Made by a program: the position numbers and the translations under genes. Source: Nitrosopumilus sp. (GTDB lineage Archaea > Thermoproteota > Nitrososphaeria > Nitrososphaerales > Nitrosopumilaceae). From it: a DNA stretch of 64,000 nt. The notes beneath the pieces are model-generated. The model had not been told where the DNA came from, did not search any database, and saw nothing but the letters and a program-made list of their open reading frames with translations. The stretch is from the NCBI GenBank assembly GCA_965204345.1, contig OZ241981.1, forward strand, positions 1,088,001 through 1,152,000, read 5' to 3'. Of the stretch, positions 112 to 51,147 are shown piece by piece (position 1 is the stretch's first letter; each line of letters begins with the position of its first letter).

Positions 112-138
112 TTCTGTTGGTGTTATATTAGAAAGATT

Positions 139-35660: not shown

Positions 35661-36866
35661 TTAAATTCTAATTATTCCTTTAGATACCATCCATTCAATT
35701 CCCTGCAGAAAATCATCATCGGTAATTTTTTCATCATACCATAACTGTGAATAAATTTTTACCCAAGAAGGAATAAACTGTTCTGATTCGGCAATTTTAT
35801 CTCTATTAGAAACAGATGCAATTTGTTTTTCAAATAAAAAATCTATTCCTTTAAGAAATTCAGAATCAGAAATTTGGTTTGAATTCCACCATTCTACGTT
35901 AGTTTTGAACCATTGTGGAATTTTGGGCAAATCTGGAGGTAATCCCTTATCAAATCCAGAAATCTTCAAGACATTTTGAGATACTGGATCAACTTTAAAC
36001 GCAACGTGCCAAAAACCCATTTCATCTATGCTTTGAATAAATTCTATGGGCTCATCATCAAGGGTAACTGTAAATTTTTCATTTCCTGAAATTGGAGGAA
36101 ATTCAAAATTTGCATATGTCTCTAATGGATAACTGTTGTATCCTTTTACACTTAGAGTAGTTCCTTGCTCATTAAACTGTGCATCAGAATACCAGGCTCC
36201 TGAATCATATCTAAAATCAAAAGTACCTCCATTTTTCTTTACAGTGATTGGAATTACTGTTGTGTCTACTGGTGCAAAACAGCTATAGTAAAAAACTTCA
36301 TCTGTGATTGAGGGATCCGGATACATTGTAAAGTCTAGAATTTCGTTTGGTTCAATTTTTTCAATAAATTCCATGTTTTGACCAATATCTAAAACTTGCT
36401 CATATCCATGTATCACGGCAAATATTTTTGGATTATAGATTGTTTTTTCTCCTACATTTTGAATTCTCCCTGAAAGGTGGCCATCATCGTATTGTATCAG
36501 AGTTTCATCATAAAGGACTACGATTGGAATTACATTCTGATGGGTTTTTTTAAATGACAATTCTACAGGAGTTAAAATAGGAAATTGGCTTGACACGTCA
36601 GGAAACTTGATTTTAAAAGGAATTTCAGCCTCAGAAGCTAATGGCACATGAATAAATGTTTTAGAAGTTATTTTAGAATCATGTAATACTGAAACTGAGA
36701 TAGTGGGTATTACTGCATAGTCAAGATCATTTTTTACATTTCCTACTACCGTGTAAATTCCATTTGAGTCAAAATATCCAACATATTCATCAGTTGGAAC
36801 AAAAACTTCTGCAAAAGAACTTTGAGATGTTAATATAAATAAAATTAAAAATCCTAATAATAACAA
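35661..36866 (-). CDS. Secreted/surface protein with C-terminal thaumarchaeal IPxW..W repeats (start uncertain; ORF open to 36953)
   Basis: Signal peptide ending SSFA; IPQWFKTNVEWW...ISDSEFLKGI and IPSWVK...ITDDDFLQGIEW. Confidence 0.8.
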   Translation of the reverse strand: MLLLGFLILFILTSQSSFAEVFVPTDEYVGYFDSNGIYTVVGNVKNDLDYAVIPTISVSVLHDSKITSKTFIHVPLASEAEIPFKIKFPDVSSQFPILTPVELSFKKTHQNVIPIVVLYDETLIQYDDGHLSGRIQNVGEKTIYNPKIFAVIHGYEQVLDIGQNMEFIEKIEPNEILDFTMYPDPSITDEVFYYSCFAPVDTTVIPITVKKNGGTFDFRYDSGAWYSDAQFNEQGTTLSVKGYNSYPLETYANFEFPPISGNEKFTVTLDDEPIEFIQSIDEMGFWHVAFKVDPVSQNVLKISGFDKGLPPDLPKIPQWFKTNVEWWNSNQISDSEFLKGIDFLFEKQIASVSNRDKIAESEQFIPSWVKIYSQLWYDEKITDDDFLQGIEWMVSKGIIRI

Positions 36867-36882
36867 TAAATGATAGGAATTT

Positions 36883-37383
36883 TTAGATGGAATTGAAAAT
36901 ATCCTCGAATCCTGATATTGGTTTTTCAAGTAAGCTTGGCCTATAGTCTTCAATCAATCTATCTACAAGATCACGCACTTTAATATGATATCTTTTTTTG
37001 AGTTCGTTAAATCTTACTTCAACCAATCCGTCTTCCACGATTTGTGACATATAAAATGAAACAGTAGAAGGTGATTTTTTAACCTCTTTTACTAGTTGGG
37101 AGAATTCTAAACCGTCTTCTTTGATTAATGCAAGTAACAGGTCTCTGGGAGTTTGTTTACGCAAGGCTTTGATAACTATAGACTCCTTTTCAGTTATCTG
37201 TGGAGAATAAAACCTTACTTGACGCGGACCACGAATTACTTTAATGATTCCATTTTTTTCTAATTTTCCTAAATAATGGCTTAGAACTCCGTTTTTTAAT
37301 CCAGATGAACGCATTATTTCTCGAAATTGAATTCCAGGATTTTGTTCGATGATTTGTTGTAATTGTGAGTCCCTATCAGTCAT
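36883..37383 (-). CDS. Double winged-helix (ArsR/MarR-like) transcriptional regulator
   Basis: NPGIQFREI...GVLSHYLGKLE; second HTH SPSTVSFYM. Confidence 0.88.
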   Translation of the reverse strand: MTDRDSQLQQIIEQNPGIQFREIMRSSGLKNGVLSHYLGKLEKNGIIKVIRGPRQVRFYSPQITEKESIVIKALRKQTPRDLLLALIKEDGLEFSQLVKEVKKSPSTVSFYMSQIVEDGLVEVRFNELKKRYHIKVRDLVDRLIEDYRPSLLEKPISGFEDIFNSI

Positions 37384-37768
37384 TTCTAAACACTCCTAAT
37401 GCCAATAATCCCAATGTAATAAATGTCAACAGATGACCCACTTCAGGAAGAGTCATCTCACCCAGGTCATAGATAGAAGGCCATGTTGCATCAACAAGTA
37501 ACACAATTTCAGCCACGATAAAAGTTGTAAATGCAATTGCACTAAGTAAAAGTCGCTTTGTTCTTAACCTGAAATATGCAAAACTTGCAAGTACTGATAT
37601 GAAAACTGCAAGTGTAATTCCTCCTACATGTAAGAAGATATGTACTAAATGATATCCATGTAGCAAATGTGGAATAATTATCGGTAATGCCAAAATTGCA
37701 ACAACACCGGTTACCACAACTGAAAATAAAGCTGATTTTCGCTCAACTATTCTTTCTGGTCTAAACAA
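37376..37768 (-). CDS. Four-helix membrane protein with His residues
   Basis: PHLLHGYHLVHIFLH; four hydrophobic segments; overlaps regulator start. Confidence 0.8.
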   Translation of the reverse strand: MFRPERIVERKSALFSVVVTGVVAILALPIIIPHLLHGYHLVHIFLHVGGITLAVFISVLASFAYFRLRTKRLLLSAIAFTTFIVAEIVLLVDATWPSIYDLGEMTLPEVGHLLTFITLGLLALGVFRND

Positions 37769-37831: not shown

Positions 37832-39391
37832 TCAGAGATGTAAAATTCCATTTTTAATTAAAAATTCCAAAGCCTGAACAAATGTCTTATCATCTATTTG
37901 TCCTGCTGCCCACCATTGTGCATTATTTCTAATCCACTCAGGAATTTCTTTAGATTCTGAAGTCTCTTGTTGAGTTTGAGTAATCACGATTATGTTATTT
38001 TTAATTAAATATTCAATACCTTGAACAAACGTATTATCATCTATTTGTTCTTGAGACCACCACAATGCATTATTTCTAATCCATTCAGGAATTACAATGT
38101 CTTCATTTTCAACTGAGGCTCTATCTATTACAATAGGAAGTGTGGATGTTGCAAGATTATTGTTATCCAAGTTTTTAAAATTTAGCTCAACAATGCCTGA
38201 AATATTTTCAGGTATTAGAAATTCTACAACATTGTGTTCGTCTTTTAAATCAGTGCTAATGCCATTTTGTTCAAAAATAATTTTCTCATTTTGAGTCATT
38301 GAAAATTCATAATATGTTGCAACAGGCTTATTTTTTAAAAAAATATCAGTAATATCAAACAGTATTTTTGCATTTGCATTGGATTGTAAATTTTCAGGCT
38401 CCCAGGAAGCTAAAATTTGAAATTGCCCATTATCAGTTACAGAACTCAAATGAGTGTAATCACGATCTGGTTTAATAACAAAATTCATGCCTTTTTGGTT
38501 TGAATTATTATCAAAAATATTTTGTAACTCTTTTTGATATATTATAAAATGAACAACTCTCTCATCGGCAAAAAAATCATCAATATTTACAATGTCTTCA
38601 GATAATTTTATTCCATTGACATACATTGTAAAACCAGATACGAGTAAGTCGCCAAATTTCTTTGGAATTACAAGCTCTTCATGAACGACTGAAGTTTGAT
38701 CTATGTTTGATTGAGTCCAATCAAAAGGCATGAAAAAACTAATCTCTTTTGAATTGGAATCATACTTAAAATTTGAAATTTCATCATAGTAGGTTATAAC
38801 ATGAATATTTTGTTTGCCAAAGTTTGGATCAATAAAATCATGCTTGGATGTTTGAGCAATAGAAATACCAGCGTTGAAAACCAAAGGAATGTCCAATGTT
38901 TTAGAATACCCATCAGCTGCTAACACGCTAACATCTAACTTGTATAACCCGCCTTCACTAAGTTTAGGCCCTTTAACATGAACCATTCTGCTCTCAAATC
39001 CCAATAAAGAACTGAAAATATCAGTACTATTTTCTTCTTCTACAATTATAGAATCAGTCTCTTCAGATACAAAATTAAAAACTATGAATCCATTATCAGC
39101 CTTAAACTCTTGTTTGAATAGAAATTGTTCGCCTCTTTCTGATTTGATTAAAAATATAACATCACGTAAAGTAATTTGGGAATCAAAATCAATTAATGAA
39201 ATTGAGATTTGTTGATCATCGCTGGTATCAGGATCGCTTTTAGATGATGAAACTTCTAATGTTACAAGTTTTCCATCAAAAGTTACAGGAGGAAAGGTCT
39301 CACTCCCTACACCGTGACCATATGCATTATCAAATCCAACTAGTAACATACAAGAAAATATTAAAAGTGAATATAATGATAAATTTTTCAA
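37832..39391 (-). CDS. Secreted HGxG-family surface protein with C-terminal IPEW repeats (likely TTG start 39391; ORF open to 39484)
   Basis: Signal peptide AYG|HGVG; YYDEISNF, FDW, VVHEE, IPEWIRNNA twice. Confidence 0.82.
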   Translation of the reverse strand: MKNLSLYSLLIFSCMLLVGFDNAYGHGVGSETFPPVTFDGKLVTLEVSSSKSDPDTSDDQQISISLIDFDSQITLRDVIFLIKSERGEQFLFKQEFKADNGFIVFNFVSEETDSIIVEEENSTDIFSSLLGFESRMVHVKGPKLSEGGLYKLDVSVLAADGYSKTLDIPLVFNAGISIAQTSKHDFIDPNFGKQNIHVITYYDEISNFKYDSNSKEISFFMPFDWTQSNIDQTSVVHEELVIPKKFGDLLVSGFTMYVNGIKLSEDIVNIDDFFADERVVHFIIYQKELQNIFDNNSNQKGMNFVIKPDRDYTHLSSVTDNGQFQILASWEPENLQSNANAKILFDITDIFLKNKPVATYYEFSMTQNEKIIFEQNGISTDLKDEHNVVEFLIPENISGIVELNFKNLDNNNLATSTLPIVIDRASVENEDIVIPEWIRNNALWWSQEQIDDNTFVQGIEYLIKNNIIVITQTQQETSESKEIPEWIRNNAQWWAAGQIDDKTFVQALEFLIKNGILHL

Positions 39392-39392
39392 T

Positions 39393-39599
39393 CTATGTCC
39401 ACTTGCGAGGATCTTTTTTTTGAATTTCTTTTCCATCAATTGTAATGTGATCTTTTTCTTCAAAAACTGTATGCCATTTACCATTACTAGGAAAAATCTT
39501 GTTCATTTTTTCAACTTGATCATTAGTTGGTGCTTTATTCATTAAAGCTCCCCATCTCATATTTGGTATCTTTGGCATTATGTCATTGATGTCTTTCAT
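39393..39599 (-). CDS. Small conserved hypothetical protein
   Basis: 68-aa ORF filling the gap between two paralogous surface genes. Confidence 0.7.
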   Translation of the reverse strand: MKDINDIMPKIPNMRWGALMNKAPTNDQVEKMNKIFPSNGKWHTVFEEKDHITIDGKEIQKKDPRKWT

Positions 39600-39632
39600 T
39601 ATGATATCACTTTACAGAATTTGTTTAAAAAC

Positions 39633-41342
39633 CTATGATTGTACTCTCAGAATTCCTTTTTGAATCAAATATTGGATTCCCTGGACAAAAGAATCATCAT
39701 CAATTTGTCCTGCTGCCCACCATTCTGCGTTATTTTTAATCCAAGATGGAATATCATTTGAACCAGAACTAGTACCTGGAGTAGTTGAAGGAATCTTTAG
39801 AATATCGTTTTGAATCAAATATTGGATTCCCTGGACAAAAGAATCATCATCAATTTGTCCTGCTGCCCACCATTCTGCGTTATTTTTAATCCAAGATGGA
39901 ATGGCTGTTTTTTCAGGCACTAAAGGTGTTGTAGTTGTAGAACCGGGGCCAATTTCAATGATGGTAGAGCCAATTCCAGAATAGGTTGGATCATAGTCTA
40001 ATCCAGTGCCATAAACTAGAACATCTATACGAATTTGGCCTGCAGATGGAATATAGATTTCTTGAATATCCAATCCTTCAATTGACGCAATTCCTGGATT
40101 TGCAGAATCAACATCATCATTACGTGCTAGCTCATTATGAAATTCATCAAAAACAATATAAGCATATTTTATATCCTTGATTAGTTCCATATCATCATTA
40201 AAGAAAGCAAACTCAAATGGAATTTCTTGATTGGCACCATATTTTCCATCCCATGAAATGTTTACAGTTGTTGGAACTTGTTTTTCAAAGTTTGTAGTGT
40301 CTACTAGATAAAATTCAGTAGAACTTTTTGTTACTTCATCTAAGGGTACTAATTTTAAATTCATATTTTTATTATCATAATTATCAGGACCTAAAGTTTC
40401 ATTGATTTTTTCCAAGTCGCTTTTAGATACAAGAAAATGAATGACATTAGTATCGTCATAAGAATATGGATCATTTAACAAAGCCTTTTGACCAACTTCT
40501 ACACCATTGACATAACCTTTGAATTGTTTTCCTTCAGCATATGGTACAAAGGATTTTGGAACCCTCACTTCTTCGTGAACAACTTGAACCAGACTTACAT
40601 AATCAGGACTCCAATCAAAAGCCATATCAAAATTGATTGAGTTATCAGATGTGTCAAATTCAAAGTTTTCAACATCGTCATAATATGTTTTGACAACTAT
40701 GGGAACCTCTGCATTTGCTGTCTGAATGAAAAAGTCTTGTTCTTGAGCAACGCTAACAAAGGTATCATATGTTAATCTATCAGCAAGAACAGTTTTTGGA
40801 CTGGTTGCCGCTTCAATATCGATTTTAATGTTATACAATCCACCTTTATCAAAAATTGGGCCTGTGATTGTCGGTCTTGCACAAATATCCAAATTTTCAT
40901 CAGTACATGATTGACCCTGAACAAATAATGCACCAGGTGCACTCACATGCTCAGAACCGCCATAAGTTGTACATTTCCAAAGTTCAGACTCATCACAATC
41001 AAGTTCTGGACGAATTTCTACATCTAAACGTCCATCTAGATCATAAAAGAGATTTCTTGCAAGCAGATCTCCACTTCGCCAAACCTCAACTCTGTATGTG
41101 ACTTTTTCTAAACTAATATCAGTCAAAGTATCAAAAAATCTAATTTTCATATTAATATCATCAATGTCTCCAATGGTAATATCAGATGGATCTAAATCGG
41201 TACGAACTGTTACCTCCATATCACCAAAACTAATGGGTTCGGCTTGGTCTCCTCCAAGTCCATGTGCAAATGCATTTGGAAGAATTGCAGGAATGGTAAA
41301 AATACCAGCAATTACAATTAGCAATGCAAACTTGTTATTCAA
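39633..41342 (-). CDS. Secreted HGxG-family surface protein with duplicated IPSW repeat
   Basis: Signal peptide AFA|HGLGGD; [16 protein letters not shown]; [12 protein letters not shown] twice. Confidence 0.85.
39658..39902. repeat. Identical 95-bp direct repeat (39658-39752 and 39808-39902)
   Basis: Nucleotide-identical copies 150 bp apart encoding [31 protein letters not shown]. Confidence 0.92.
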
Positions 41343-41453
41343 TACAAAAGTTGTATTAATTCCATATTTAAAGATGGTATTGTATTTCTATGCGTGATAA
41401 TTTTTTTAGGAATAGAGAGTACAATTTTTATTTATGAATTTTAGAATTGGAAT

Positions 41454-42269
41454 ATGAAAATGTTATTGGCGGTATTATTAATTCCACTGTTAATTATTCC
41501 AGCATTTGCTGAATCTCAGACTTTATCTACAGATAAGGGAACGCTCGATGTTAAACTCACATATGATGCAATTGAGCCAAACACTCAAACTAAAATAAAT
41601 ATTGATTTTATCAATCCTCAAACACAAAAAATTCAAGAGCATATTGATTATACAATATCTGTTTCAAAAGAGAATGAAAGGGTTTTTGGTCCCATACCAT
41701 TAACCCATACATCTGTGGGTTCTGTTAAAATTCCAATTGAATTTAATCTTGGAGAAGGGATTTATACAATGGACTTTGAGATTGAAGGAATTTTATTTCA
41801 ACCACTTCCAACTGAAACGGTTTCATTTGATATTACAGTAGGAGATGCCTTTGCCCAACTGCCAGCTAATCAAAATCCAACAGATAATGATAATGGAGGA
41901 TGTTTGATTGCAACGGCTGCATATGGTTCTGAAATGGCACCACAGGTTCAGCAATTAAGAGAAATTAGAGACAATACAATTCTAAAAACAAATTCAGGAA
42001 CAGCATTTATGACGTCATTTAATCAGTTTTATTATTCATTTTCTCCAGTGATTGCGGATTTTCAGAGAGAGCAGCCAATTTTTAAAGAATTTATGAAAAT
42101 AATATTAATTCCAATGTTATCATCACTGTCTTTGTTAAACTATGTAGATATTGATTCAGAAAGGGAAATGCTTGGATATGGTATTTCTATCGTTTTGCTC
42201 AATATAGGAATGTATATTGGAATTCCAGTATTTGGCATTCTAAAATTGCACCAACACAGAAGAAACTGA
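41454..42269 (+). CDS. Secreted protein with CFI-box-CTERM-like domain
   Basis: Signal peptide; QEHIDY, THT; GGCLIATAAYGSEMAPQVQQLREIRD...FNQFYYSFSP; C-terminal TM. Confidence 0.85.
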   Translation: MKMLLAVLLIPLLIIPAFAESQTLSTDKGTLDVKLTYDAIEPNTQTKINIDFINPQTQKIQEHIDYTISVSKENERVFGPIPLTHTSVGSVKIPIEFNLGEGIYTMDFEIEGILFQPLPTETVSFDITVGDAFAQLPANQNPTDNDNGGCLIATAAYGSEMAPQVQQLREIRDNTILKTNSGTAFMTSFNQFYYSFSPVIADFQREQPIFKEFMKIILIPMLSSLSLLNYVDIDSEREMLGYGISIVLLNIGMYIGIPVFGILKLHQHRRN

Positions 42270-42326
42270 TTCTGTCTCTAGAAACCACAGTGGGGTTTTT
42301 ATGTATCTTAACAGGTAATTTCTCTA

Positions 42327-43259
42327 ATGAAGACTAAAGCACTTAGCTCTTTCTTCGTACTATTTGCTATTGCAGCAGGTATTGTCACAATGACAGCACC
42401 AACTGCTGTTTTTGCAGATCACTCAGAGGTAACAGTTGAAGCCGCAGCAGGTTCTGGCTTTTCTGGTTGTCAAGACACCCCAGAAGGATGTTACATACCA
42501 AGTACAGCAACAGTTGATGTAGGTGGTGTTGTGATATTTTCAAACACTGATAGCGCAGCACATACATTCACATCAGGTGTTGCAGAAGATGCTGATTCAG
42601 TAGGTGCCATATTTGACTCTGGTCTAGTAATAACTGGAAATTCATTTGAATGGAATCCAACTGAAGTAGGTGAAGTACCTTATTTTTGCATAGTTCATCC
42701 TTGGATGGAAGCTATGATTATAGTACAAGAAGTAGGAGATGGAGACAAAGCAGCAGACGATCATGGTGACGATCATGGTGACGATCATGGTGACGATCAT
42801 GGTGACGATAACGGTAAAATGATGCAGGGCATGGAAAAAGATGATGCAGCTGCAACCGGAATGTTATCTGATGGTACAGTGGTTTCAATATGGACTTCTA
42901 CACCAACAGCAGATGAAATGATGGAAATCTCCATCGAATTTGCCGATGCAGAGCATGTGAATTATGATATTAGGGCAACCCAAGATGGTCAGGAACTATT
43001 GACTGATATTGGAGCACATAATCATAATGGCGTAGCTAAACATACAACAGATCGAATGTTGAGTTCTGATCCAGTAGACATCACTGTTACCTTCCAAGGT
43101 TATGGTGTTGATGATCCTAAAATAGGACCAATCGGTGAAGAAGTTGTATTCTCAAACGTTGTTCCAGAATTTGGTACAATCGCAATGATGATACTAGCTG
43201 TTGCAATCATAAGCATCGTAGCAGTAACTGCAAAATCTAGAGTCGTTCCAAGATTTTAG
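42327..43259 (+). CDS. Plastocyanin/azurin-family blue copper protein with His-rich linker and PEFG-CTERM anchor
   Basis: AAHTFTSG and YFCIVHPWM type-1 Cu ligands; (DDHG)4; VVPEFG + TM + basic tail. Confidence 0.92.
   Translation: MKTKALSSFFVLFAIAAGIVTMTAPTAVFADHSEVTVEAAAGSGFSGCQDTPEGCYIPSTATVDVGGVVIFSNTDSAAHTFTSGVAEDADSVGAIFDSGLVITGNSFEWNPTEVGEVPYFCIVHPWMEAMIIVQEVGDGDKAADDHGDDHGDDHGDDHGDDNGKMMQGMEKDDAAATGMLSDGTVVSIWTSTPTADEMMEISIEFADAEHVNYDIRATQDGQELLTDIGAHNHNGVAKHTTDRMLSSDPVDITVTFQGYGVDDPKIGPIGEEVVFSNVVPEFGTIAMMILAVAIISIVAVTAKSRVVPRF
42756..42809 (+). repeat. 12-bp coding tandem repeat GACGATCATGGT x4.5 (DDHG)
   Basis: Read directly from the sequence. Confidence 0.9.
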
Positions 43260-43273
43260 GAATTCCTCTTTTT

Positions 43274-43909
43274 CTATTTTCTTTTTACTAGAGATATTAT
43301 TGCTAGAATAATAGCTGCTGCTGCAATGGACAGTCCAAGTATTGCAAAGTCATAAGATGCGCCATCATTAGAGGTAACTTTGGTTTCTCCAGATTCTAAG
43401 CTGGATACATCTTGTTGTAAGGAAGCGATTGCATTTTTTAGTGCTCCAATATCAGCATTACCACTACCCGTGGTTGGTGGAAAGTCTAAAACTGCTGTAG
43501 GCTCTACATCCTCAACGGGTATTTTTACATCAATAGAGACATCATCGAGTTCGCCCTTGAGTTCTACAGTATAACTTCCGGTTCTTGTTGGAATTATTGA
43601 CGAAAAATAATATCCAGGTCTAGGATCAGAATTGACATCAATTTTTTTAGCGGCGCCGCCAAACATCACAGTGGCATCTACATTTTTAAAAACGCTAGTA
43701 ACTCCTTTATGAGTTCCTTCGGTTGGTCCAGGCTCTATAATTTTGAAAACAAGATCATTTCGTATTCCTACTACAGGAGGCTCAATTGCCCATCCTACTT
43801 CAATTTCATACTGCTCAACATGTACAGTGGTATGCGCAAATGATGGAGCAATCATGCCAACTGAAAACAATAAAACAACAAGGCCCAAAAATGCTATCTT
43901 CACGACCAT
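43274..43909 (-). CDS. Membrane-anchored secreted protein with mature N-terminal His (YcnI/CopC-neighbour type)
   Basis: MVVKIAF...PSFA|HTTVH...VGWAIEPP; C-terminal TM + KRK; ORF open to 44041 but overlaps the divergent gene. Confidence 0.78.
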   Translation of the reverse strand: MVVKIAFLGLVVLLFSVGMIAPSFAHTTVHVEQYEIEVGWAIEPPVVGIRNDLVFKIIEPGPTEGTHKGVTSVFKNVDATVMFGGAAKKIDVNSDPRPGYYFSSIIPTRTGSYTVELKGELDDVSIDVKIPVEDVEPTAVLDFPPTTGSGNADIGALKNAIASLQQDVSSLESGETKVTSNDGASYDFAILGLSIAAAAIILAIISLVKRK

Positions 43910-44004
43910 GATTGGAGAATTGCAGGTTATTATCTTTATGTAAATTGGTACAAATTTAGAAAAATGTAAACTGTTTAAATTGTCATAAATGATCTTATCA
44001 ACAA

Positions 44005-46779
44005 ATGAGAAAATTTCTAATGATTGTACTAGTTTTATCATTTATTTCAATTCCAGTTGCAGCAGCACATCCATTTACAGAAGAAACAATTCCAAATTCA
44101 TCATCTAATGCACCAATAGGCACATCAGAAATAATGGTATATTTTTCAGAACCGGTGGATATCAACTTCAGTGAAATCAAAGTTTTTGATAATAATGGCA
44201 ATCAGATAGATAACAAAGATACAAACTATCATGAAGGAGAATTATCATTAATAGTTACTACGGCTCCATTAGATGAAGGAGTTTATACTGTAGCTGTAAA
44301 AGTTCTCTCAAAAGTTGATGGTCATCTAGTCCCAAGTGCATTCGTGTTTGGGGTAGGCGATGTTATCGTTAAGAATATTGAATCGCCAAAAATTGAGCAA
44401 GAAATTATATTCTTGCCAGAAGCAGGTGCAAGATTTCCGGGAATTTTAGGTCAAACTATTGTTTTAGGGGCAGTAATTGCATCATTAATTATTTGGGGAA
44501 CACAAAACAAGCATCTGATCAGAGAGGAACTAGATAAAGTGGAGAATTTCCATCATGGGAAGTTCATGTCAATTACCGGTGTTGGATTAATGCTTGTATT
44601 TATTTCAGATATTCTAATGATTGTAGTTCAAACAGTAAGATTGGAAGCATTTCCGCTTGAGATAATTCAGACGTACTTTGGAACAGTTTGGCTTGCTAGG
44701 ATGATTATTACAATAATTCTACTTGGAATTTGGTTTGGTATGGATAGGAAAAAAATTCTATCAAAGAGAAACCAAATTCCAATGCTTGTTGTGTCTCTAG
44801 TGTTAATTGCAACTTCTACTTTGATAGGTCACGGGGCAGCAAGCGAACAGATTGGTGCAGTAATACTAGACTATATTCATAATTTGGTTGCGGCAGTTTG
44901 GATTGGTGGAATCATATACTTTGTTTTCACATTACTTCCAACATTTTCACAGCTAAAAGATGCAGATAAAGAAAAAATGAGTTTGGTAATGATTCCAAGA
45001 TTTTCCATTGCGTTTATTATCTCAGTTGGTATTGTAATTATTACAGGACCAACATTAATGTGGTTCTTAGAGACAGATATACGGTTGATCACCGAGTCTG
45101 TATTTGGTCAGTTAATTATTCTGAAAATTGCAATTGCGACAATCATGGTAGGTTTGGGGGGATATTTTCAGCTCAAAGTGCAGAAAAATGCAGAAAAAAG
45201 CTTTTCATCAGGTAAAATTTCAATTCACAAAAAACTACGCAAATCTCTCAAGGCGGATGCAATATTGGGAATTATTCTTCTAGGGGTTGTGGCATTGCTA
45301 ACTAATGGTACATTGCCTGCAGGAGAAATCCAAAAAGTCGATGCGCAAGAAATAGTATATGGATTCAAGACTATTGAATTCTCAGAAAATGCAAAATTCG
45401 ATATTGACATATCTCCATTTTCTAGTGGAACAAATACAATTCTAGTTAAAGTGAGGGATTTTGAAGGAAATCAGCTTTATGATTCAGAACAGATTCAAGT
45501 AAAGATATCTAATCCATCAAAGAATATCTCTCCGATTGAAATTCCAGTGTCAATAAAGAATCCCTCAGATCCTATTGAATTCCAAGGTGAATTAACATTT
45601 GGGTTTTCAGGAGAGTGGTTAGTAGAAATCGAAGCTCAGAGGACTGAGAATGCTAATGAATCAATAGTTTTGAATTTATTTGTAAAACCTAGATTAAATG
45701 ATATAAAAACTCAAATTATTGAATACGAATTGCCCGAAGATGCAAAGCCATTATTCTCCGTATATGATGGAAGTGATTCCTTGTGGATTAGTGATGCGTC
45801 TGCACCACGCATTTGGCAATTCTCTCTTCAAACAAATGAATTTTCTTCATATTCATTTGATGGATTAGCAACTACATTTTTGACACAAGATAGTAATGGA
45901 AGAATTTGGTTTACTGACACACCAAGAAATCAAATTGGATTTATAGACATTAAAACAAAAGAAGTTACAACTAAGACTATTCCAAAACTAGATCCAGTAA
46001 TTTCAGAGAATTCGCCTCTATTTATCAAGGCAGACTTTGAGAACAACATATGGATTACAATTGTCAATAAAGACAGAATTGTAAAATATGTGCCAGAACA
46101 AGATACGTTTGAAGAGATAATTCTTCCAGATAAGCAGTCATTGCCATTTGCATTAGCCCTTGATGAAGATGGTAAGGTCTGGTATTCAGCAACAGGAGTT
46201 GGCAAGATTGGATATATTGATCCTAAAAATAATCATCTGACACAAATTTCTACTGAGACAGTATTGGAGGCACCAGAGGCTCTCCTATTTGATGATGATG
46301 GAAACCTATGGATTGCCGAACATTCGGGCTTGGCAATCACTAGATTTAATCCAGTTTTAGAGACGTTTGAAAAAGTATCGGTACCTGATAGTGAGGCATT
46401 ACCATTTGGTATGACATTTGACAGATATGGAAATGTTTGGTTTGCACAACATACGGTAGATAGTTTAGGAGTTTATGATCCAGATAACAATGATTTATTA
46501 GAAATTCCAATTCCAACTGAAACATCATTTGTTCAATTTATGACATCTGATGGAAACAACAACGTATGGTTTGTTGAACAGCAATCAAATAAAATTGGAA
46601 CAGTAAAGATGACCGAAATTCCAGTAAGTATTTCACAAATAGAGACGTCAAGTAAGGTAAAGATCAAATATACCGAACTTGCATCACCACTAATTGCGTT
46701 AGGGATTATTGCAACATCTCTATTTTATGTGAAAAGTATTCAGGATAAAAGAAGATTGAATTCACTGATTAATTCTTAG
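44005..46779 (+). CDS. CopC-CopD-Ig-like-Vgb-type beta-propeller fusion (copper uptake/resistance)
   Basis: AAA|HPF...FSEPV...SKVDGH (CopC); GHGAA, HNLVAAVWIGG (CopD); repeated GRIWFT/GNLWIAE/GNVWFA blades; C-terminal TM. Confidence 0.9.
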   Translation: MRKFLMIVLVLSFISIPVAAAHPFTEETIPNSSSNAPIGTSEIMVYFSEPVDINFSEIKVFDNNGNQIDNKDTNYHEGELSLIVTTAPLDEGVYTVAVKVLSKVDGHLVPSAFVFGVGDVIVKNIESPKIEQEIIFLPEAGARFPGILGQTIVLGAVIASLIIWGTQNKHLIREELDKVENFHHGKFMSITGVGLMLVFISDILMIVVQTVRLEAFPLEIIQTYFGTVWLARMIITIILLGIWFGMDRKKILSKRNQIPMLVVSLVLIATSTLIGHGAASEQIGAVILDYIHNLVAAVWIGGIIYFVFTLLPTFSQLKDADKEKMSLVMIPRFSIAFIISVGIVIITGPTLMWFLETDIRLITESVFGQLIILKIAIATIMVGLGGYFQLKVQKNAEKSFSSGKISIHKKLRKSLKADAILGIILLGVVALLTNGTLPAGEIQKVDAQEIVYGFKTIEFSENAKFDIDISPFSSGTNTILVKVRDFEGNQLYDSEQIQVKISNPSKNISPIEIPVSIKNPSDPIEFQGELTFGFSGEWLVEIEAQRTENANESIVLNLFVKPRLNDIKTQIIEYELPEDAKPLFSVYDGSDSLWISDASAPRIWQFSLQTNEFSSYSFDGLATTFLTQDSNGRIWFTDTPRNQIGFIDIKTKEVTTKTIPKLDPVISENSPLFIKADFENNIWITIVNKDRIVKYVPEQDTFEEIILPDKQSLPFALALDEDGKVWYSATGVGKIGYIDPKNNHLTQISTETVLEAPEALLFDDDGNLWIAEHSGLAITRFNPVLETFEKVSVPDSEALPFGMTFDRYGNVWFAQHTVDSLGVYDPDNNDLLEIPIPTETSFVQFMTSDGNNNVWFVEQQSNKIGTVKMTEIPVSISQIETSSKVKIKYTELASPLIALGIIATSLFYVKSIQDKRRLNSLINS

Positions 46780-47587
46780 ATAGCAATCCTGCCGACTTTA
46801 TTCCCATAGTTCCTGCAAGTAAAGCAATTGATAATAAAACAATAGTTCCTGCAGGAGTAATATCAAATATGTAAGAAATCAAAATTCCCACTATGACTGA
46901 AAATATTGAAAAACTCATTGAAATTATTGCAGTTTGCTTGAATCCTTTACCATACATTATTGCAGTAACATTAGGAATTACAAACAGGGCTGAAATTAAT
47001 AATACGCCTACAAGTTGAATTGAGGTTACTACGGTAAGTCCTGCCATAAACACTAACAAATAATTTATTTTTTCTACTGGGATCCCACTAACCTTAGCTT
47101 GCTCTTCATTAAACGTAGAGTAAAGAATTTGCCTGTACAGAATCAAGATTATAATTAGAATAGATCCAGTTAATGCTAAAATTAAGACAGTATCATTTAC
47201 ACTAACAAGTAGAATACTCCCAAAAAGAAAACTGAAAATATCAATAGTGAAACCACCTGACAAACCAATGATTACGAGCCCGATTGCTATGCCTGAAGAC
47301 AGTAACACTGCAATGGAAGCATCTCCGGATATGTTGTATCTATCCTTGACTTTTGTGATAATTAAGGCACTGGCTATTGAAACTCCATATGCTGTCCATA
47401 ATGGATAAACGCCAGCTAGTAATCCCAATGCAATTCCACCAAAAGATGAATGGGCAATTGCATCACCAAATAACGAATAACGCCTTAATACCAAAAATAA
47501 TCCAACAACAGAGCATAAAATTGCAATTGTAATTCCAGAAATTAGTGCCCTATGCATAAAACCAAATGATAGAATTTCAAGAGACAT
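46769..47587 (-). CDS. znuB: Zn/Mn ABC transporter permease
   Basis: GDAIAHSSFGG, FLFGSIL, VGVLLISALFVIP. Confidence 0.9.
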   Translation of the reverse strand: MSLEILSFGFMHRALISGITIAILCSVVGLFLVLRRYSLFGDAIAHSSFGGIALGLLAGVYPLWTAYGVSIASALIITKVKDRYNISGDASIAVLLSSGIAIGLVIIGLSGGFTIDIFSFLFGSILLVSVNDTVLILALTGSILIIILILYRQILYSTFNEEQAKVSGIPVEKINYLLVFMAGLTVVTSIQLVGVLLISALFVIPNVTAIMYGKGFKQTAIISMSFSIFSVIVGILISYIFDITPAGTIVLLSIALLAGTMGIKSAGLLSKN

Positions 47588-47589
47588 GA

Positions 47590-48312
47590 TTAATGATGGT
47601 GCATGTGTTCCTGCATGGATGCTTCAGAATATTGTTTTACTAATTCATCATCAGAAAAGAATTTTTCAGATTCGCCATGAAAAAATAAAGTTCTGTTTAA
47701 ACATGCGACATGGTTTGCTAGTTGCTTGACTGCATCTAAATCATGAGAAGACCAAATGATGGTAATTTTTTGTTTAGAATTTAGTTCACGTAAGATACTA
47801 TAAAATAATTCTATACTTTGTTGATCAATACCGGTAACGGGTTCATCTAAAATCAAAATTTTTGGATTATTTACTAAAGCTTTTGCAATAAAGACACGTT
47901 GCTGTTGTCCTCCGGAAAGTTCGCCTATTCGTCTATTACGAAGTTCGTGAATCCATAATTGCTGTAAAATTTCATCAATTTTGTTTTCATCAGATTCTTT
48001 TCTTAATCCCATTCTCACAACATCGCTAACTGTCACCGGAAAATTTTTCTCAAAGATTGGTTTTTGTGGCACATATCCAAGATCCTTAAGGTAGCTTTTT
48101 GAATTTTTTATATCCTCATCAAAAAATTTGATAGTACCTTTGTATTTTGTATATAGTCCAAGCATAGAAGCAAAAAGTGTGGATTTTCCTGCACCGTTAG
48201 GACCAATTATGCCTAAAAAATCACCTAGATTAACTGTCAAGTTGACATTATCTAGAGCCTTAACATCAGGATATTGTACTGTCAAGTTGGTAATTTCAAG
48301 AGCATTCAACAC
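47590..48312 (-). CDS. znuC: Zn/Mn ABC transporter ATPase
   Basis: GPNGAGKST, YVPQ, LSGGQQQR, LDEP, SHD, His-rich C-terminus. Confidence 0.9.
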   Translation of the reverse strand: MLNALEITNLTVQYPDVKALDNVNLTVNLGDFLGIIGPNGAGKSTLFASMLGLYTKYKGTIKFFDEDIKNSKSYLKDLGYVPQKPIFEKNFPVTVSDVVRMGLRKESDENKIDEILQQLWIHELRNRRIGELSGGQQQRVFIAKALVNNPKILILDEPVTGIDQQSIELFYSILRELNSKQKITIIWSSHDLDAVKQLANHVACLNRTLFFHGESEKFFSDDELVKQYSEASMQEHMHHH

Positions 48313-49295
48313 AAAGCCTCTTTAAGATGTTCAAGATTTTGACTCATCTTTGAAATGTAATCATCTTTGGAAACAATTTCAAGTGGGGATAAAACTAGAA
48401 CTTTTCCACCAATCTCATCAGCAATAACTTGTGAGATTTTTGTATTCACAGTTTCTTCACTAAAAATCACCTTGAGATTTAATTCTCTAGCTTTTGAAAT
48501 AATATTTTCTAATGTTTTTGCAGTAACTTCGCCATGAGGATCATTTGATGAAACAATAGTATGTTGTGTCAAGTCGTATTCATCAGCAAAATATGAAAAT
48601 GCGTCATGAAATGCAATAAAATCACTATTGCAATTTGATAATTGGTTTTGAATCTTTAAATCTAGCAAATCTAATTTTTTATTATATTCTTCTGCATTTG
48701 ATTGATAAAAATCATTGTTTTTAGGATCAGAATTTGAAAAAGCATTTGCAATATTTTGTACTTGTATTTTTGCATATACAGGATTTAGCCAAATATGTGG
48801 ATCTCCTGCAAGATGTTCATGTTCATCGTGTTGTTCCTCATTGTGTTGTTCCTCATTGTGTTGTTCCTCATCGTGTTGTTCCTCATCGTGTTGTTCCTCA
48901 TCGTGTTGTTCCTCAGTTTGATTTGTTTTAATTCCATCGCTTGTATCAACTATTTTTCCGGGATAATTATTTTCTACTAAATCATCAATCCAGTTTTCGA
49001 AACCTATGCCATTTATAACAATTAAATCAGATTTTTGCATTTGTTGTACATCCTTAATTGTTGGTTCCCAGCCATGAGGTTCAACTCCAACTGGAATTAG
49101 TAAAGTAGCATCAACTTTTTCTCCTCCAACTACCTGTGAGAATTCATGAAGTGGGTTAAAAGAGGAAATAACATGAAGTTTTGAATTATCAATAGAAGCA
49201 ATCTTTTGAGTCTGATTTGTTCCATAGATTGCAATTGATGTTAATGGAATCACTATTGCAATTGCAATTATTGCAAATTTTATCTGAATATTCAC
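48306..49295 (-). CDS. znuA: Zn/Mn ABC transporter substrate-binding protein with His/Glu-rich loop
   Basis: EPHGWEP, DPHIWLNP, FHDAFSYF; (EEQH[D/N])6 loop. Confidence 0.92.
   Translation of the reverse strand: MNIQIKFAIIAIAIVIPLTSIAIYGTNQTQKIASIDNSKLHVISSFNPLHEFSQVVGGEKVDATLLIPVGVEPHGWEPTIKDVQQMQKSDLIVINGIGFENWIDDLVENNYPGKIVDTSDGIKTNQTEEQHDEEQHDEEQHDEEQHNEEQHNEEQHDEHEHLAGDPHIWLNPVYAKIQVQNIANAFSNSDPKNNDFYQSNAEEYNKKLDLLDLKIQNQLSNCNSDFIAFHDAFSYFADEYDLTQHTIVSSNDPHGEVTAKTLENIISKARELNLKVIFSEETVNTKISQVIADEIGGKVLVLSPLEIVSKDDYISKMSQNLEHLKEALC
48825..48914 (-). repeat. 15-bp coding tandem repeat x6 (EEQHD/N)
   Basis: at(c/t)gtgttgttcctc repeated six times. Confidence 0.92.
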
Positions 49296-49386
49296 GCAAG
49301 CAGCTCAATTCAGATTATTAATAAATGTATAAAATCTTAATAAGATTAATTGCTAAACTTATAAGATAATTAATAACATTAATCAT

Positions 49387-49770
49387 ATGCCAATAGTCTC
49401 AATCTCATTAAATGATGAAATATTATCTGAATTAGACAAGCTACAGACGTCAATGGGTTTTTCAGGAAGATCTGAGGCCATCAGAGCAGGAATTAGATCA
49501 TTTGTTTCTGAAGAAAAACAAAAAGCCGATTTAGCAGGAAATATTCACGCGATTTTGTTGGTTGTGCACAATGATGAGTTTGATCATGTGGTATCAGGAA
49601 TTACACATAATTTTGAAGATCTGATTACAACACATCTTCACAGTAAGATTGAAAAAGAAAAATGTATGGAACTTTTTGTAATTGATGGAGATGCTGAAAA
49701 AGTCTCTACAATGACAAAAGACTTTCAAACAAACAAAAACATGGATACTGTAAAATTAGTAGCACTTTAA
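49387..49770 (+). CDS. nikR: NikR-family metal-responsive ribbon-helix-helix regulator
   Basis: IVSISL...GFSGRSEAIR RHH; H...HLH.....C ligand set with CMELF. Confidence 0.85.
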   Translation: MPIVSISLNDEILSELDKLQTSMGFSGRSEAIRAGIRSFVSEEKQKADLAGNIHAILLVVHNDEFDHVVSGITHNFEDLITTHLHSKIEKEKCMELFVIDGDAEKVSTMTKDFQTNKNMDTVKLVAL

Positions 49771-51137
49771 ATGTAAAGTAAGTTCTTTCTTGTTACAAAA
49801 ATGATACCTGTAATGGAAATTATCAATACAAGTATTGCAATACTGCCAAATTCTGGAACAACAACCAATGCAAATTCGGTTTCTTGTCCTGTATTTCTAA
49901 TATTTTCAAATTTGATTATTGTTGGACCGGTTTGATCTTCTGAGAATGTAAATTTTTCAAACTCCCCGCCAATTTGAGTACTTCCAGATACACGATGAAT
50001 TTCCTGTCCATTTTGAAGTATTACAAATGTATAATCAGAATTTCTTAGAGGATCATTTGTTAATCCATCTCTTATAGTAAAAACAAAATTTGTATCAACT
50101 CCTGGTTCAATTTCTAAAGGATCCCATGAAAGATTTATTTTGAAATCCTCACTTTTTGTATATGCTTCCAAAGGAAATACAATAGTTTCACTTGTAGATA
50201 ATCTAAATTTCATATTATCGGGTAATGGGTCACCAGATTTTTTCATTTCATTTTTCATGAATCGTAAGTGATCTTGTAATAAAACAAAATGAATTATTCT
50301 CTCATCATCATCAGTATAGTCATCAACGGATATTGAAGATTTGAATAGTTCTATATCATTTGCAAAAGCAGAATAACTAGGAGATAAAAATTCTGTAAAA
50401 TCTTTTGGAAAGTGAGTTTCTATATGAACAACAGAGACGTGAGACATTTGTTTTTCACTCCAGTCAAAAGGCATCTCAAATGTAACTTCTTTAGCCTCAG
50501 GATTATACTCAAAATTTGAAATTGTATCAAAATAAGATTTTGAGCGAAATTCAACATCATGATTTTCTGCATCTTGTTCAATAAAGGATACAGTCTCAAT
50601 CAGGCTCAAATCCGCATTGTATACTCCAGAATCCTCTATGATGTTTGTAGGTTCATCAATTGTTCTAATTTCAATCTCAAAATTATACAAGCCACTCGAA
50701 GTAAAAAGAGGCCCAACTATTTCAATCGGATTAGATTCTGTTCCATACCAAGCACCTAGTAGAGAATCTTGTTCTCCATTAATTACAAGATTATCGACTC
50801 CAGGCTGTGGTGATATTTTAATAGGCAATACGCCATTTTCTGCAAAGAAATAATTTCTAAAAATCATTTCATCTTTATGAAATAAACCAATAAGAAAGGT
50901 TACATTTTTTGCATTTTCTTTTGTATCATCTTCAGTGGCAGTAATTATGATTTGATCGGACTGGTTTTCAAAATACATTGGCATTTCTACTGAAATGGAC
51001 AATTCCTTTCCTTGAACATCTACAGATGAAATTGTGTCAATACCAAACCCATGGCCATAAACACTGCTTGCAGGAAACAGTAAAGAGATCATTATTGTAC
51101 AAATTCCAAACTTGTTTAAAATCTTCATATTTTTCAT
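49767..51137 (-). CDS. Secreted HGxG-family protein with PEFG-CTERM anchor
   Basis: VYG|HGFG; YFDTISNF, FDW, VVHIE, IIHF; VVPEFG + TM. Confidence 0.85.
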   Translation of the reverse strand: MKNMKILNKFGICTIMISLLFPASSVYGHGFGIDTISSVDVQGKELSISVEMPMYFENQSDQIIITATEDDTKENAKNVTFLIGLFHKDEMIFRNYFFAENGVLPIKISPQPGVDNLVINGEQDSLLGAWYGTESNPIEIVGPLFTSSGLYNFEIEIRTIDEPTNIIEDSGVYNADLSLIETVSFIEQDAENHDVEFRSKSYFDTISNFEYNPEAKEVTFEMPFDWSEKQMSHVSVVHIETHFPKDFTEFLSPSYSAFANDIELFKSSISVDDYTDDDERIIHFVLLQDHLRFMKNEMKKSGDPLPDNMKFRLSTSETIVFPLEAYTKSEDFKINLSWDPLEIEPGVDTNFVFTIRDGLTNDPLRNSDYTFVILQNGQEIHRVSGSTQIGGEFEKFTFSEDQTGPTIIKFENIRNTGQETEFALVVVPEFGSIAILVLIISITGIIFVTRKNLLYI

Positions 51138-51147
51138 TAAATCACCA

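What the first reader, a model, noticed from the sequence alone, without database searches (positions are those of the whole stretch)
37832..51137. Family of secreted proteins with a mature N-terminal His clustered with CopCD, cupredoxin, ZnuABC and NikR: candidate surface metal-scavenging system
Seen: three paralogs (37832, 39633, 49767) start right after an AxA/AxG/VxG signal-peptidase site with HG(V/L/F)G. They share GGLY/SGLY, (Y/F)D.(I/V).NF, M.FDW, VVH(E/I)E, PK.F and (I/V)HF motifs but carry different anchors (IPxW repeats twice, PEFG-CTERM once). Two more neighbours also begin with His after cleavage (43274 SFA|HTT; CopC AAA|HPF), and the cupredoxin begins A|DH. Known: a free N-terminal His forms the Cu-binding histidine brace in CopC, LPMOs, YcnI and AmoB/PmoB, and ammonia-oxidising archaea depend heavily on Cu. 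No protease motif such as HExxH is visible. Inference: an uncharacterised His-brace metal-binding family relaying Cu (or Zn/Ni) from the S-layer to CopD/ABC importers.
Basis: partly seen in the sequence, partly recalled or inferred. Interest (0 to 1): 0.75.

Follow-up and report, generated by a model that had tools for sequence, protein, structure and literature searches.

The report
Archaeal histidine-first surface proteins by CopCD
Three copies of an undescribed cell-surface protein family, found in every ammonia-oxidising archaeon sampled and usually starting with a histidine once secreted, sit beside the copper importer CopCD and probably hold a metal, most likely copper, though this is not shown.

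Summary
The three ORFs are true paralogs (BLASTP E 7e-59 to 1e-29). Each has a signal-peptide-like leader ending in small residues at -3/-1, followed by HG. They have no Pfam, NCBIfam or PDB sequence relative.

The family has 623 clusters at 50% identity. In an order-level sample it occurs in 66 of 66 amoA-positive genomes and 2 of 85 amoA-negative ones.

Residue 1 is His in 91 of 113 representatives, Asp in 20, and Asn or Gln in 2. G2, D176, W198, H210, E212, N232, D244 and H255 are near-invariant.

AlphaFold gives a confident (pLDDT 95) three-domain all-beta protein. The outer domains resemble macroglobulin domains and the copper proteins CrdA and PmoD equally well. The middle domain, which carries the invariant residues, has no clear match.

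A family member lies next to CopC-CopD-propeller and a second His-first membrane protein in all four AOA families. ZnuABC/NikR linkage is confined to one family.

So a copper-handling role is the best reading (about 0.45), but a histidine brace is unproven because no model coordinates were available.

This scan flagged the same island in two other genomes before.

The parts
37832..39484 (-). Paralog A (550-aa ORF). Probable start is M17 at 39436. Predicted mature His is encoded at 39314-39316. Two C-terminal IPxW repeats lie at about 37835-38092.
39633..41342 (-). Paralog B (569 aa, TTG start). Predicted mature His is encoded at 41262-41264. Two IPxW repeats lie at about 39636-39911. Only 5 His in the mature protein, 3 of them at the conserved positions.
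   Evidence: covered by metatranscriptome contigs in 4 of 4 runs laid
49767..51137 (-). Paralog C (456 aa). Predicted mature His is encoded at 51051-51053. PEFG-CTERM anchor. This is the copy that was folded.
44005..46779 (+). CopC-CopD-beta-propeller fusion (924 aa). The CopC domain has mature His1 plus D84-x-H86, invariant in 14 of 14 orthologs.
43274..43909 (-). 'protG': membrane-anchored His-first protein (SFA|HTT) with a beta-rich ectodomain, a coiled-coil stalk and a C-terminal TM helix, divergent from CopCD. H26, W40, P44 and N51 are invariant in 16 of 16 orthologs.
43945..43954 (-). TTGGTACAAA element between the protG and CopCD promoters. It is the only exact copy in the window. It matches the core of the Cu-limitation motif reported for N. 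viennensis.
   Evidence: PMC7785015 passages
42327..43259 (+). PEFG-CTERM protein with a cupredoxin-like N-domain (VFA|DH...; H, C-x2-H-x2-M) and a (DDHG)n linker.
41454..42269 (+). CFI-box-CTERM protein, a syntenic member of the island.
36883..37768 (-). ArsR-type double-wHTH regulator (36883-37383) and a His-rich small membrane protein (37376-37768), downstream of paralog A.
35661..36953 (-). Unrelated secreted protein carrying the same two IPxW repeats.
46769..49295 (-). ZnuB, ZnuC and ZnuA-type metal ABC importer.
49387..49770 (+). NikR-type regulator, divergent from znuA and convergent with paralog C.

Best explanation
The three genes encode members of an undescribed family of cell-surface proteins of ammonia-oxidising archaea.

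Shown:
- Each has a leader peptide.
- A confident three-domain all-beta ectodomain follows.
- A swappable C-terminal anchor comes last: IPxW repeats, PEFG-CTERM or, in relatives, CFI-box-CTERM.

Inferred:
- After signal-peptide cleavage, the free amino group and side chain of residue 1 (His; Asp in a minority) form a mononuclear metal site together with the invariant H210-x-E212 strand and H255 of the middle domain.
- The metal is most likely Cu(II).
- The proteins capture, buffer or hand over copper in the space under the S-layer, within the network formed by CopC-CopD, the His-first membrane protein protG and the blue-copper-like protein.

This would work in the way YcnI and YcnJ exchange Cu(II) in Bacillus subtilis.
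For: - Constrained mature N-terminus. H 91 of 113, G2 112 of 113, E/D6 115 of 118. All come directly after a small-x-small site, where signal peptidases impose no such constraint.
- Near-invariant ligand-type residues: H210 141/148, E212 144/148, H255 139/145, D176 139/145, D244 137/145, N232 136/145, W198 142/148. All 22 non-His variants keep them. In paralog B, 3 of only 5 His sit at these positions.
- When residue 1 is not His it is Asp, Asn or Gln, which are ligand-capable residues.
- Old synteny. CopC-CopD-propeller plus protG lie within the fetched stretch in 13 of 20 loci chosen by family hit alone, and in all four AOA families. Coordinates add G320, G351, G387, G407, G412, G416 and G422, each 2-12 kb from a long CopD ORF.
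- The CopC neighbour has the canonical H1/D-x-H brace residues in 14 of 14 orthologs.
- Domain 1's top structural match is the copper protein CrdA (Z 8.5, rmsd 3.2, 102 aligned, model 2..151), tied with macroglobulin domains. Domain 3 matches CrdA (Z 10.8) and PmoD (Z 9.8), just under macroglobulin domains at 11.5.
- In N. viennensis the CopC/D neighbourhood of 25 genes has 15 induced by Cu limitation (PMC7785015, passages read).
- A His brace needs an N-terminal His plus a second His, often with Glu/Asp oxygen ligands. YcnI uses His+Glu beside a Trp (PMC8424229, section 7 read).
Against: - Residue 1 is Asp in 20 and Asn or Gln in 2 of 113 representatives. Asp arose at least twice, so a canonical brace cannot be universal.
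- The domain that bears the invariant residues has no clear solved relative (best Z about 7, glycosidase accessory domains).
- No His-brace family (LPMO, CopC, YcnI, PCuAC) appeared in the lists.
- The spatial meeting of His1 with H210/E212/H255 was not testable.
- 7 of 20 sampled family loci had no CopCD in the stretch fetched.
- The TTGGTACAA element of the CopCD/protG promoter is not found upstream of any of the three genes.
- Eight or more invariant polar residues are more than a simple binding site needs and would also fit an enzyme.
- Reyes et al. state that the CopC/D fusion is downregulated under Cu limitation in N. maritimus (PMC7785015, section 15).
Confidence: 0.45

Rival explanations
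1. An extracellular enzyme. The invariant H/E/H/D/N/Y/W constellation of the middle domain would be an active site, either of a metal-dependent hydrolase (some sources name these proteins 'peptidase' or 'Zn-dependent protease') or of a copper oxidoreductase acting in the pseudo-periplasm. The N-terminal His would be part of it.
For: - More invariant polar residues than a carrier needs.
- An H-x-E strand plus a His on a later strand is a common mononuclear metalloenzyme layout (general knowledge, not tested).
- Source names include 'peptidase' and 'Secreted periplasmic Zn-dependent protease family protein'.
- The distribution tracks amoA: 66 of 66 amoA-positive against 2 of 85 amoA-negative genomes.
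Against: - No HExxH or HxxEH in the three proteins, and HExxH anywhere in only 15 of 150 representatives.
- No peptidase or other enzyme family in Pfam or NCBIfam.
- No enzyme fold in the structure searches.
- 1 to 10 matches per genome and swappable anchors look more like binding or surface proteins.
- The amoA co-occurrence rests on four related families, that is, perhaps one gain.
Confidence: 0.2
2. A structural cell-envelope protein (spacer, adhesin or S-layer-associated scaffold). The conserved N-terminus would be a structural plug, and the acidic residues would bind Ca2+ or nothing. The nearness to CopCD would reflect a general surface-protein island.
For: - It is a string of Ig/macroglobulin-like beta-sandwiches (Foldseek hits to C3 and alpha-2-macroglobulin, TM about 0.2; VIA Z 11.5 to CD109 and C3 MG domains).
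- The anchors are shared with many other surface proteins: the IPxW repeat occurs at about 16 places in the genome.
- It is multicopy.
- Neighbours include other anchored proteins of no known function.
Against: - Two invariant His and an invariant H-x-E are unusual for Ca2+ or purely structural sites.
- The N-terminal HG-x-G-x-E is conserved across more than 600 clusters.
- The specific gene order with CopCD and protG is kept in four families.
Confidence: 0.2
3. A zinc or nickel scavenger that feeds the adjacent ZnuABC importer under NikR control.
For: Paralog C lies next to NikR and ZnuABC in the window and in L033, L039 and L042.
Against: - ZnuABC/NikR were found beside family members only in the window's own family (3 of 10 loci there, 0 of 10 in the other three families).
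- Paralog C is convergent with NikR, not co-oriented with the transporter.
- ZnuA brings its own substrate-binding protein with a His-rich loop.
Confidence: 0.05

Closest known systems
Histidine-brace copper proteins without catalysis: CopC (C0-1 type), fungal X325/LPMO-like proteins, PmoF PCuAC domains (as summarised in PMC8424229, section 7)
   Same: - Secreted and beta-sandwich.
- The predicted mature protein starts with His (HG..., as I recall for many AA10 LPMOs; this is recalled, not tested).
- Further invariant His and carboxylates.
- Encoded beside a CopD importer.
- Surface-anchored, as I recall for the X325 protein Bim1 (recalled).
   Different: - No sequence or profile match to any of them.
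- Three domains and about 400 residues, against about 100-250.
- The candidate second ligands lie more than 200 residues away in another domain.
- Residue 1 is Asp/Asn/Gln in 22 of 113 representatives.
- Metal binding is untested.
Bacillus subtilis ycnKJI system: YcnJ (CopC-CopD fusion) and YcnI (DUF1775, monohistidine brace)
   Same: - An importer with a fused extracellular CopC His-brace domain.
- A separate membrane-anchored His-first protein encoded beside it (protG here).
- Cu(II) exchange between extracellular domains is the proposed mechanism (abstract of 10.1101/2025.05.23.655588; abstract and section 7 of PMC8424229).
   Different: - protG gives no DUF1775 hit in Pfam at E up to 10 and no YcnI hit with a 16-sequence profile against PDB sequences.
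- The archaeal importer carries a beta-propeller.
- The three-paralog family has no counterpart in the Bacillus operon.
CrdA (H. pylori), PmoD, P19/FtrA/HftA/Tp34 periplasmic copper-binding beta-sandwiches
   Same: - Domain 1 aligns with CrdA at Z 8.5, HftA 7.6, PmoD 7.4, P19 7.2 and Tp34 7.1.
- Domain 3 aligns with CrdA at Z 10.8 and PmoD at 9.8.
   Different: - Scores are tied with macroglobulin domains (Z 8.2 and 11.5), so only the general fold is shared.
- Sequence identity is 5-14%.
- The family's invariant residues sit mainly in domain 2, which none of these match.
Macroglobulin (MG) domain strings of complement C3 / alpha-2-macroglobulin / CD109
   Same: The overall build is a chain of beta-sandwich domains (Foldseek E 2e-6; VIA Z 11.5).
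   Different: - TM-scores are only about 0.2 over the whole model.
- No thioester or bait region.
- 8-17% identity.

Membership tests
Histidine-brace copper proteins (general) | Mature protein begins with His, whose amino group and imidazole bind Cu | tested here: inconclusive
   All three paralogs and 91 of 113 representatives have His right after a small-x-small leader end. Cleavage is predicted, not measured. 22 of 113 have Asp/Asn/Gln instead.
Histidine-brace copper proteins (general) | A second His (or Glu in the mono-His form) placed beside His1 in the fold | not testable with these tools
   Candidates H210, E212 and H255 are near-invariant, but structure prediction returns no coordinates.
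Histidine-brace copper proteins (general) | Binds one Cu(II) with high affinity | not testable with these tools
   Needs ICP-MS, EPR or ITC.
CopC (PF04234) | Match to the family model | tested here: not met
   No Pfam hit for A, B or C at E up to 0.01, nor for the C core at E up to 10. The neighbouring 924-aa protein does match (PF04234, 3e-10).
YcnI / DUF1775 (for the neighbour protG) | Match to the family model or to YcnI sequences | tested here: not met
   No Pfam hit at E up to 10. The profile of 16 orthologs against PDB sequences found only coiled-coil/stalk matches. N-terminal His, W40 and E43 are conserved, so a likeness in working is possible.
LPMO (AA9-AA17) | LPMO beta-sandwich fold with His1 on the flat face | tested here: inconclusive
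   No LPMO appears among the rows listed. The lists are dominated by one domain each, so absence proves nothing.
Zincin metallopeptidases | HExxH (or inverted HxxEH) motif | tested here: not met
   Absent from A, B and C. HExxH occurs anywhere in only 15 of 150 representatives. No peptidase family in Pfam or NCBIfam.
PEFG-CTERM / archaeosortase-type sorted proteins | C-terminal PEFG motif plus TM helix matching TIGR04296 | tested here: met
   Paralog C: E 1.6e-9, 37.2 bits against a cut-off of 25. A and B use IPxW repeats instead. Of 92 representatives, 5 have PEFG-CTERM, 4 CFI-box-CTERM and 1 WING-49.
Alpha-2-macroglobulin / complement MG-domain proteins | Homology beyond the shared sandwich fold (thioester, bait region, more than 6 MG domains) | tested here: inconclusive
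   Fold likeness of single domains only. No sequence match to PDB chains at E up to 10.

The most novel reading that the evidence does not exclude
The family is a new class of N-terminal-His (in some lineages N-terminal-Asp) copper centre, invented once in the ancestor of ammonia-oxidising archaea and kept in every lineage. It would act not as a mere carrier but as a working part of archaeal ammonia oxidation in the pseudo-periplasm. It might metallate AMO, NirK or multicopper oxidases, or itself turn over a nitrogen intermediate or reactive oxygen species.
Probability: 0.08. Interest if true: 0.9.

Novelty: new variant of a known kind. Interest (0 to 1): 0.6.

Why it matters
Ammonia-oxidising archaea run their energy metabolism on copper enzymes, and they dominate nitrification in the oceans and many soils. 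How they obtain and distribute copper outside the membrane is not known.

This family is present in all 66 amoA-bearing genomes sampled and nearly absent from their non-nitrifying relatives. It is multicopy and surface-anchored, and it is genetically tied to the CopCD importer. That makes it a concrete, testable candidate for this missing step.

If the predicted site is real, it would also add a structurally new scaffold to the small set of histidine-brace copper centres. The natural His-to-Asp variants would be useful for understanding what the brace is for.

Tried and rejected
- **Complex prediction.** Complex prediction of the CopC domain (alignment A6) with domains 1-2 of paralog C (A4) returned 'no answer' (ipSAE 0.00 in both runs; controls not run). 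This says nothing either way.
- **Related loci.** I used the genome search and the fetch from genomes instead.
- **Domain 2 lead.** The ESM Atlas search of residues 150-295 among named clusters gave no usable hit. The whole-core search found only unnamed or automatically named archaeal clusters.
- **Foldseek on domains 1-2.** It gave only generic two-Ig-domain hits (T-cell receptor chains) with E above 1e-3.
- **Compensating His.** I asked whether a second His makes up for Asp1. Position 126 is His in 17 of the non-His sequences, but the tree shows His126 is also present in neighbouring His1 clades, so it is not a compensation.
- **Reyes motif.** TTCSGSMTTTGWACYANT gave 6 matches in the window at up to 3 mismatches, against 3.4 expected. 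14 of 100 shuffles reached 6, so it is not enriched overall. Only the copy at the CopCD/protG promoter is meaningful.
- **Metatranscriptome contigs.** I laid four runs from two studies on 35500-52000.
  - Paralog B, the CFI-box gene, the cupredoxin-like gene, protG and the ArsR/TM pair are covered.
  - Paralogs A and C and most of CopCD and ZnuABC have little or no cover. For contigs that is no evidence of silence.
  - Depths cannot rank genes.
- **Published expression data.** I could not map the family onto published tables. The Reyes 2020 supplement and the Bayer 2019 supplement give locus tags or orthogroup numbers without sequences. No source name tied a family member to an NVIE_ or Nmar_ tag.
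- **Literature searches.** No paper came up for:
  - 'histidine brace' with 'ammonia-oxidizing archaea'
  - 'histidine brace' with 'Nitrosopumilus'
  - 'Zn-dependent protease' with 'Nitrosopumilus' and 'secreted'

  The searches found no description of the family.


Full report
**What is there.** The window comes from a Nitrosopumilus-like ammonia-oxidising archaeon. The closest named relatives of its proteins are Nitrosopumilus species, and the genome holds an archaeal amoA.

The genome holds exactly these three copies, all in this window.

Each starts with a positively charged, then hydrophobic leader that ends in small residues at -3 and -1 (AYG, AFA, VYG), followed by HG. For paralog A the listed ORF is probably too long, and M17 at 39436 gives a normal leader.

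Paralogs A and B end in two IPxW repeats. C ends in a PEFG-CTERM signal.

The IPxW repeat is a general anchor module. It occurs at about 16 places in the genome, including the unrelated neighbour at 35661-36953.

**The neighbourhood.** Pfam and NCBIfam confirm these neighbours:
- a 924-residue CopC-CopD-beta-propeller fusion
- a ZnuA/ZnuC/ZnuB-type importer
- a NikR-type regulator
- a CFI-box-CTERM protein
- an ArsR-type regulator

The 'cupredoxin' scores only weakly (amicyanin 0.0052; Cupredoxin_1 0.21), but it shows the H...C-x2-H-x2-M pattern and a PEFG-CTERM anchor.

The two further His-first proteins are real. The 43274 gene ('protG', true start probably at 43909) keeps A|H in 16 of 16 orthologs, with invariant W40, P44 and N51. 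The CopC domain keeps H1 and D84-x-H86, the canonical brace residues, in 14 of 14.

A crude genome-wide scan found 448 leader-like ORFs. 16 had a candidate site followed by His, about 8 of them convincing. Four of these, plus paralog B (missed because of its TTG start), lie in the 13-kb island. The clustering is real, although three of the five are paralogs.

**The family.** It has no Pfam or NCBIfam model apart from the anchors. A profile search finds no PDB sequence relative at E up to 10.

A profile of the three mature cores finds 623 clusters at 50% identity (192 at E ≤ 1e-30). Sources call members 'PEFG-CTERM sorting domain-containing protein', 'CFI-box-CTERM domain-containing protein', 'hypothetical', 'peptidase', 'Zn-dependent protease' or 'peptide/nickel transport system substrate-binding protein'. 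None of the functional names is backed by a model hit.

Among the 150 best representatives, 113 have profile position 2 aligned. The residue before it is His in 91, Asp in 20, Gln in 1 and Asn in 1, always after a small-x-small leader end.

Near-invariant positions (paralog C mature numbering):

| Position | Count |
|---|---|
| G2 | 112/113 |
| E/D6 | 115/118 |
| G121 | 140/141 |
| Y123 | 137/141 |
| D176 | 139/145 |
| P195 | 143/149 |
| W198 | 142/148 |
| H210 | 141/148 |
| E212 | 144/148 |
| N232 | 136/145 |
| D244 | 137/145 |
| H255 | 139/145 |

The 22 non-His members keep H210, E212 and H255 without exception.

On a tree of the full-length representatives, Asp1 appears in one large clade and again in a separate pair. 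One reversion to His occurs inside the Asp clade.

**Distribution.** In a phylum-wide sample, the family was found in 44 of 301 genomes, all in the window's own family (43 of 43 there, besides the window's genome).

In an order-level sample of 151 genomes it was found in 68: four families at 23/23, 9/9, 11/11 and 23/23, one further genome (1/15) in a fifth family, and none in the other 15 families.

The archaeal AmoA model hits 66 of the same 151 genomes, in the same four families. Every amoA-positive genome has the family. Only 2 of 85 amoA-negative ones do (G414, 96% complete; G390, 75% complete).

CopD is wider: 88 of 151, including non-nitrifier families, mostly as short ORFs of about 170 residues. 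The family therefore tracks ammonia oxidisers more tightly than it tracks CopD in general.

These are related genomes. The pattern may reflect a single gain.

**Structure.** AlphaFold2, with a 110-row alignment, gives a very confident model of the 397-residue mature core of paralog C (pLDDT 95.4, pTM 0.87). Residues 1-295 alone give pLDDT 95.1.

The model is all-beta, with three domains at about 1-153, 155-290 and 300-397.
- **Whole model.** Foldseek sees strings of macroglobulin domains (complement C3, E 2e-6, but TM about 0.2).
- **Domain 3.** The exhaustive aligner matches CD109/C3 MG domains (Z 11.5), CrdA (10.8) and PmoD (9.8).
- **Domain 1.** It matches CrdA (8.5), MG domains (8.2), HftA (7.6), PmoD (7.4), P19 (7.2) and Tp34 (7.1). 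Copper-binding sandwiches and generic MG domains are therefore tied.
- **Domain 2.** This domain carries most invariant residues. It gets only Z of about 7 to glycosidase accessory domains and nothing from Foldseek below E 1e-3.

The first ten residues have a mean pLDDT of 84-86, so the model places them. But no coordinates are returned. The key question, whether His1 touches H210, E212 and H255, remains open.

**Synteny.** I fetched 12-20 kb around 20 family hits in other genera. I chose them by family score and by nearness of family hits to each other, without knowing the neighbours. I then searched them with the window's island proteins.

CopC+CopD+propeller lies in the stretch in 13 of 20:
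- 9 of 10 in the window's family
- 1 of 4, 2 of 3 and 1 of 3 in the other three AOA families

protG lies beside it in all 13, and is also present in L035 without CopCD. Two of the negative stretches are cut short by contig ends.

Coordinates add seven more genomes with a family member 2-12 kb from a long CopD ORF.

The CFI-box and cupredoxin-like genes travel with the cluster in the window's family. The ArsR/His-rich-membrane pair sits beside CopCD in L038, L039 and L050.

ZnuABC/NikR occur next to family members only in the window's family (L033, L039, L042; NikR alone in L036).

The old, conserved partner is therefore the copper importer, not the zinc/nickel genes.

**Regulation and expression.** Reyes et al. 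(PMC7785015; abstract, passages, section 15 and some supplement rows read) report the following.
- In N. viennensis the two CopC/D genes lie in a 25-gene cluster, of which 15 genes are induced by copper limitation.
- The induced genes include an ArsR regulator and its neighbour.
- A motif, TTCSGSMTTTGWACYANT, lies upstream of several of these genes.
- The CopC/D fusion is downregulated under copper limitation in N. maritimus.

In the window, the only exact TTGGTACAAA (the motif's core, reverse strand) lies at 43945-43954, between the divergent protG and CopCD promoters. The same TTGGTACAA sits about 20-25 bases before the TTTAAAT box of CopCD in L034, L036 and L040, with variants in L041, L033 and L042. 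TTTGTACCACAA occurs in L038 and L050.

No copy lies upstream of the three family genes, so they are not obviously in that regulon.

Metatranscriptome contigs from four runs of two studies cover paralog B, the CFI-box gene, the cupredoxin-like gene, protG and the ArsR/membrane pair. Contig data cannot rank genes or show silence.

**Reading.** The most economical explanation has three parts.
- It is a surface-anchored metalloprotein.
- Its site is built from the new N-terminus and the H-x-E / H residues of domain 2.
- It works with copper in the CopCD/protG network.

The nearest worked-out analogue is the B. subtilis YcnJ/YcnI pair. There a CopC-CopD fusion and a membrane-anchored His-first protein each bind Cu(II) and exchange it (abstract of 10.1101/2025.05.23.655588; abstract and section 7 of PMC8424229). 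In the archaeal island that pair is represented by CopCD and protG, although protG is not a detectable DUF1775 member. The three-paralog family is an addition without counterpart.

I put this reading at about 0.45. The Asp1 variants, the many invariant polar residues, the lack of a shared operator and the untested geometry keep it from being higher.

The rivals are:
- an enzyme (0.2)
- a structural surface protein (0.2)
- a Zn/Ni role (0.05)

**Prior knowledge and novelty.** I found no paper describing the family. Supplements of bioRxiv preprints were not available. The expression tables I could see carry no sequences, so published data may already hold relevant expression values that I could not map.

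This scan noted the same island in two other genomes (e1-4322299, e1-2523883), with the same closest analogue. My results agree and add:
- the amoA co-occurrence count
- the four-family synteny test
- the His/Asp tally and tree
- the fold searches by domain
- the promoter element

Noticed in passing
window 43945-43954 (and L034, L036, L040, L041, L033, L042, L038, L050 intergenic regions): A conserved TTGGTACAA element lies between the divergent protG and CopCD promoters, about 20-25 bases before the CopCD TTTAAAT box. It matches the core of the copper-limitation motif reported for N. viennensis. The motif may therefore be shared by marine and soil lineages at this one promoter.
   Followed up: partly
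window 36883-37768: An ArsR-type regulator with two winged-helix domains overlaps a small membrane protein with several His in its helices (PHLLHGYHLVHIFLH). The pair lies beside CopCD in L038, L039 and L050. Its N. viennensis counterparts (NVIE_014280/014290 by position) are reported induced by copper limitation. It may be a membrane metal sensor plus regulator.
   Followed up: partly
window 42327-43259, around 42756: The cupredoxin-like PEFG-CTERM protein has a (DDHG)n His/Asp-rich linker. Metatranscriptome contigs of two runs lack 24 bases there, a repeat-number variant. Contigs over this gene and protG carry depths of hundreds to more than a thousand, against about 5-15 elsewhere. Contig depth is a poor measure.
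   Followed up: no
L050 10598-12694: In a larger-genome AOA family, further small secreted proteins with predicted His-first N-termini lie between the family member and the ArsR/CopCD genes: AFA|HEFSG (326 aa), AYG|HFFGD (168 aa), and one AFA|DPLQ.
   Followed up: no
genome C1:1209522 (outside the window): A second protG-like gene (IAYG|HTVDAVGEYRVE, 217 aa) lies elsewhere in the genome. L041 also has two protG-like genes.
   Followed up: no
window 48306-49295: ZnuA carries a long (EEQHD/N)x6 His/Glu-rich loop, as is typical for zinc-specific ZnuA proteins (recalled).
   Followed up: no
window 51148-51858 and L040 4596-5282: Paralog C starts 10 bases after a Lon-N-domain-like gene on the same strand. 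The adjacency recurs in L040, so C may be co-transcribed with housekeeping genes rather than with the metal genes.
   Followed up: no
G390 and G414: Two genomes have the family but no amoA hit. G390 is 75% complete and belongs to a family otherwise without either. G414 is 96% complete. These may be incomplete assemblies, mis-binning, or real exceptions.
   Followed up: no
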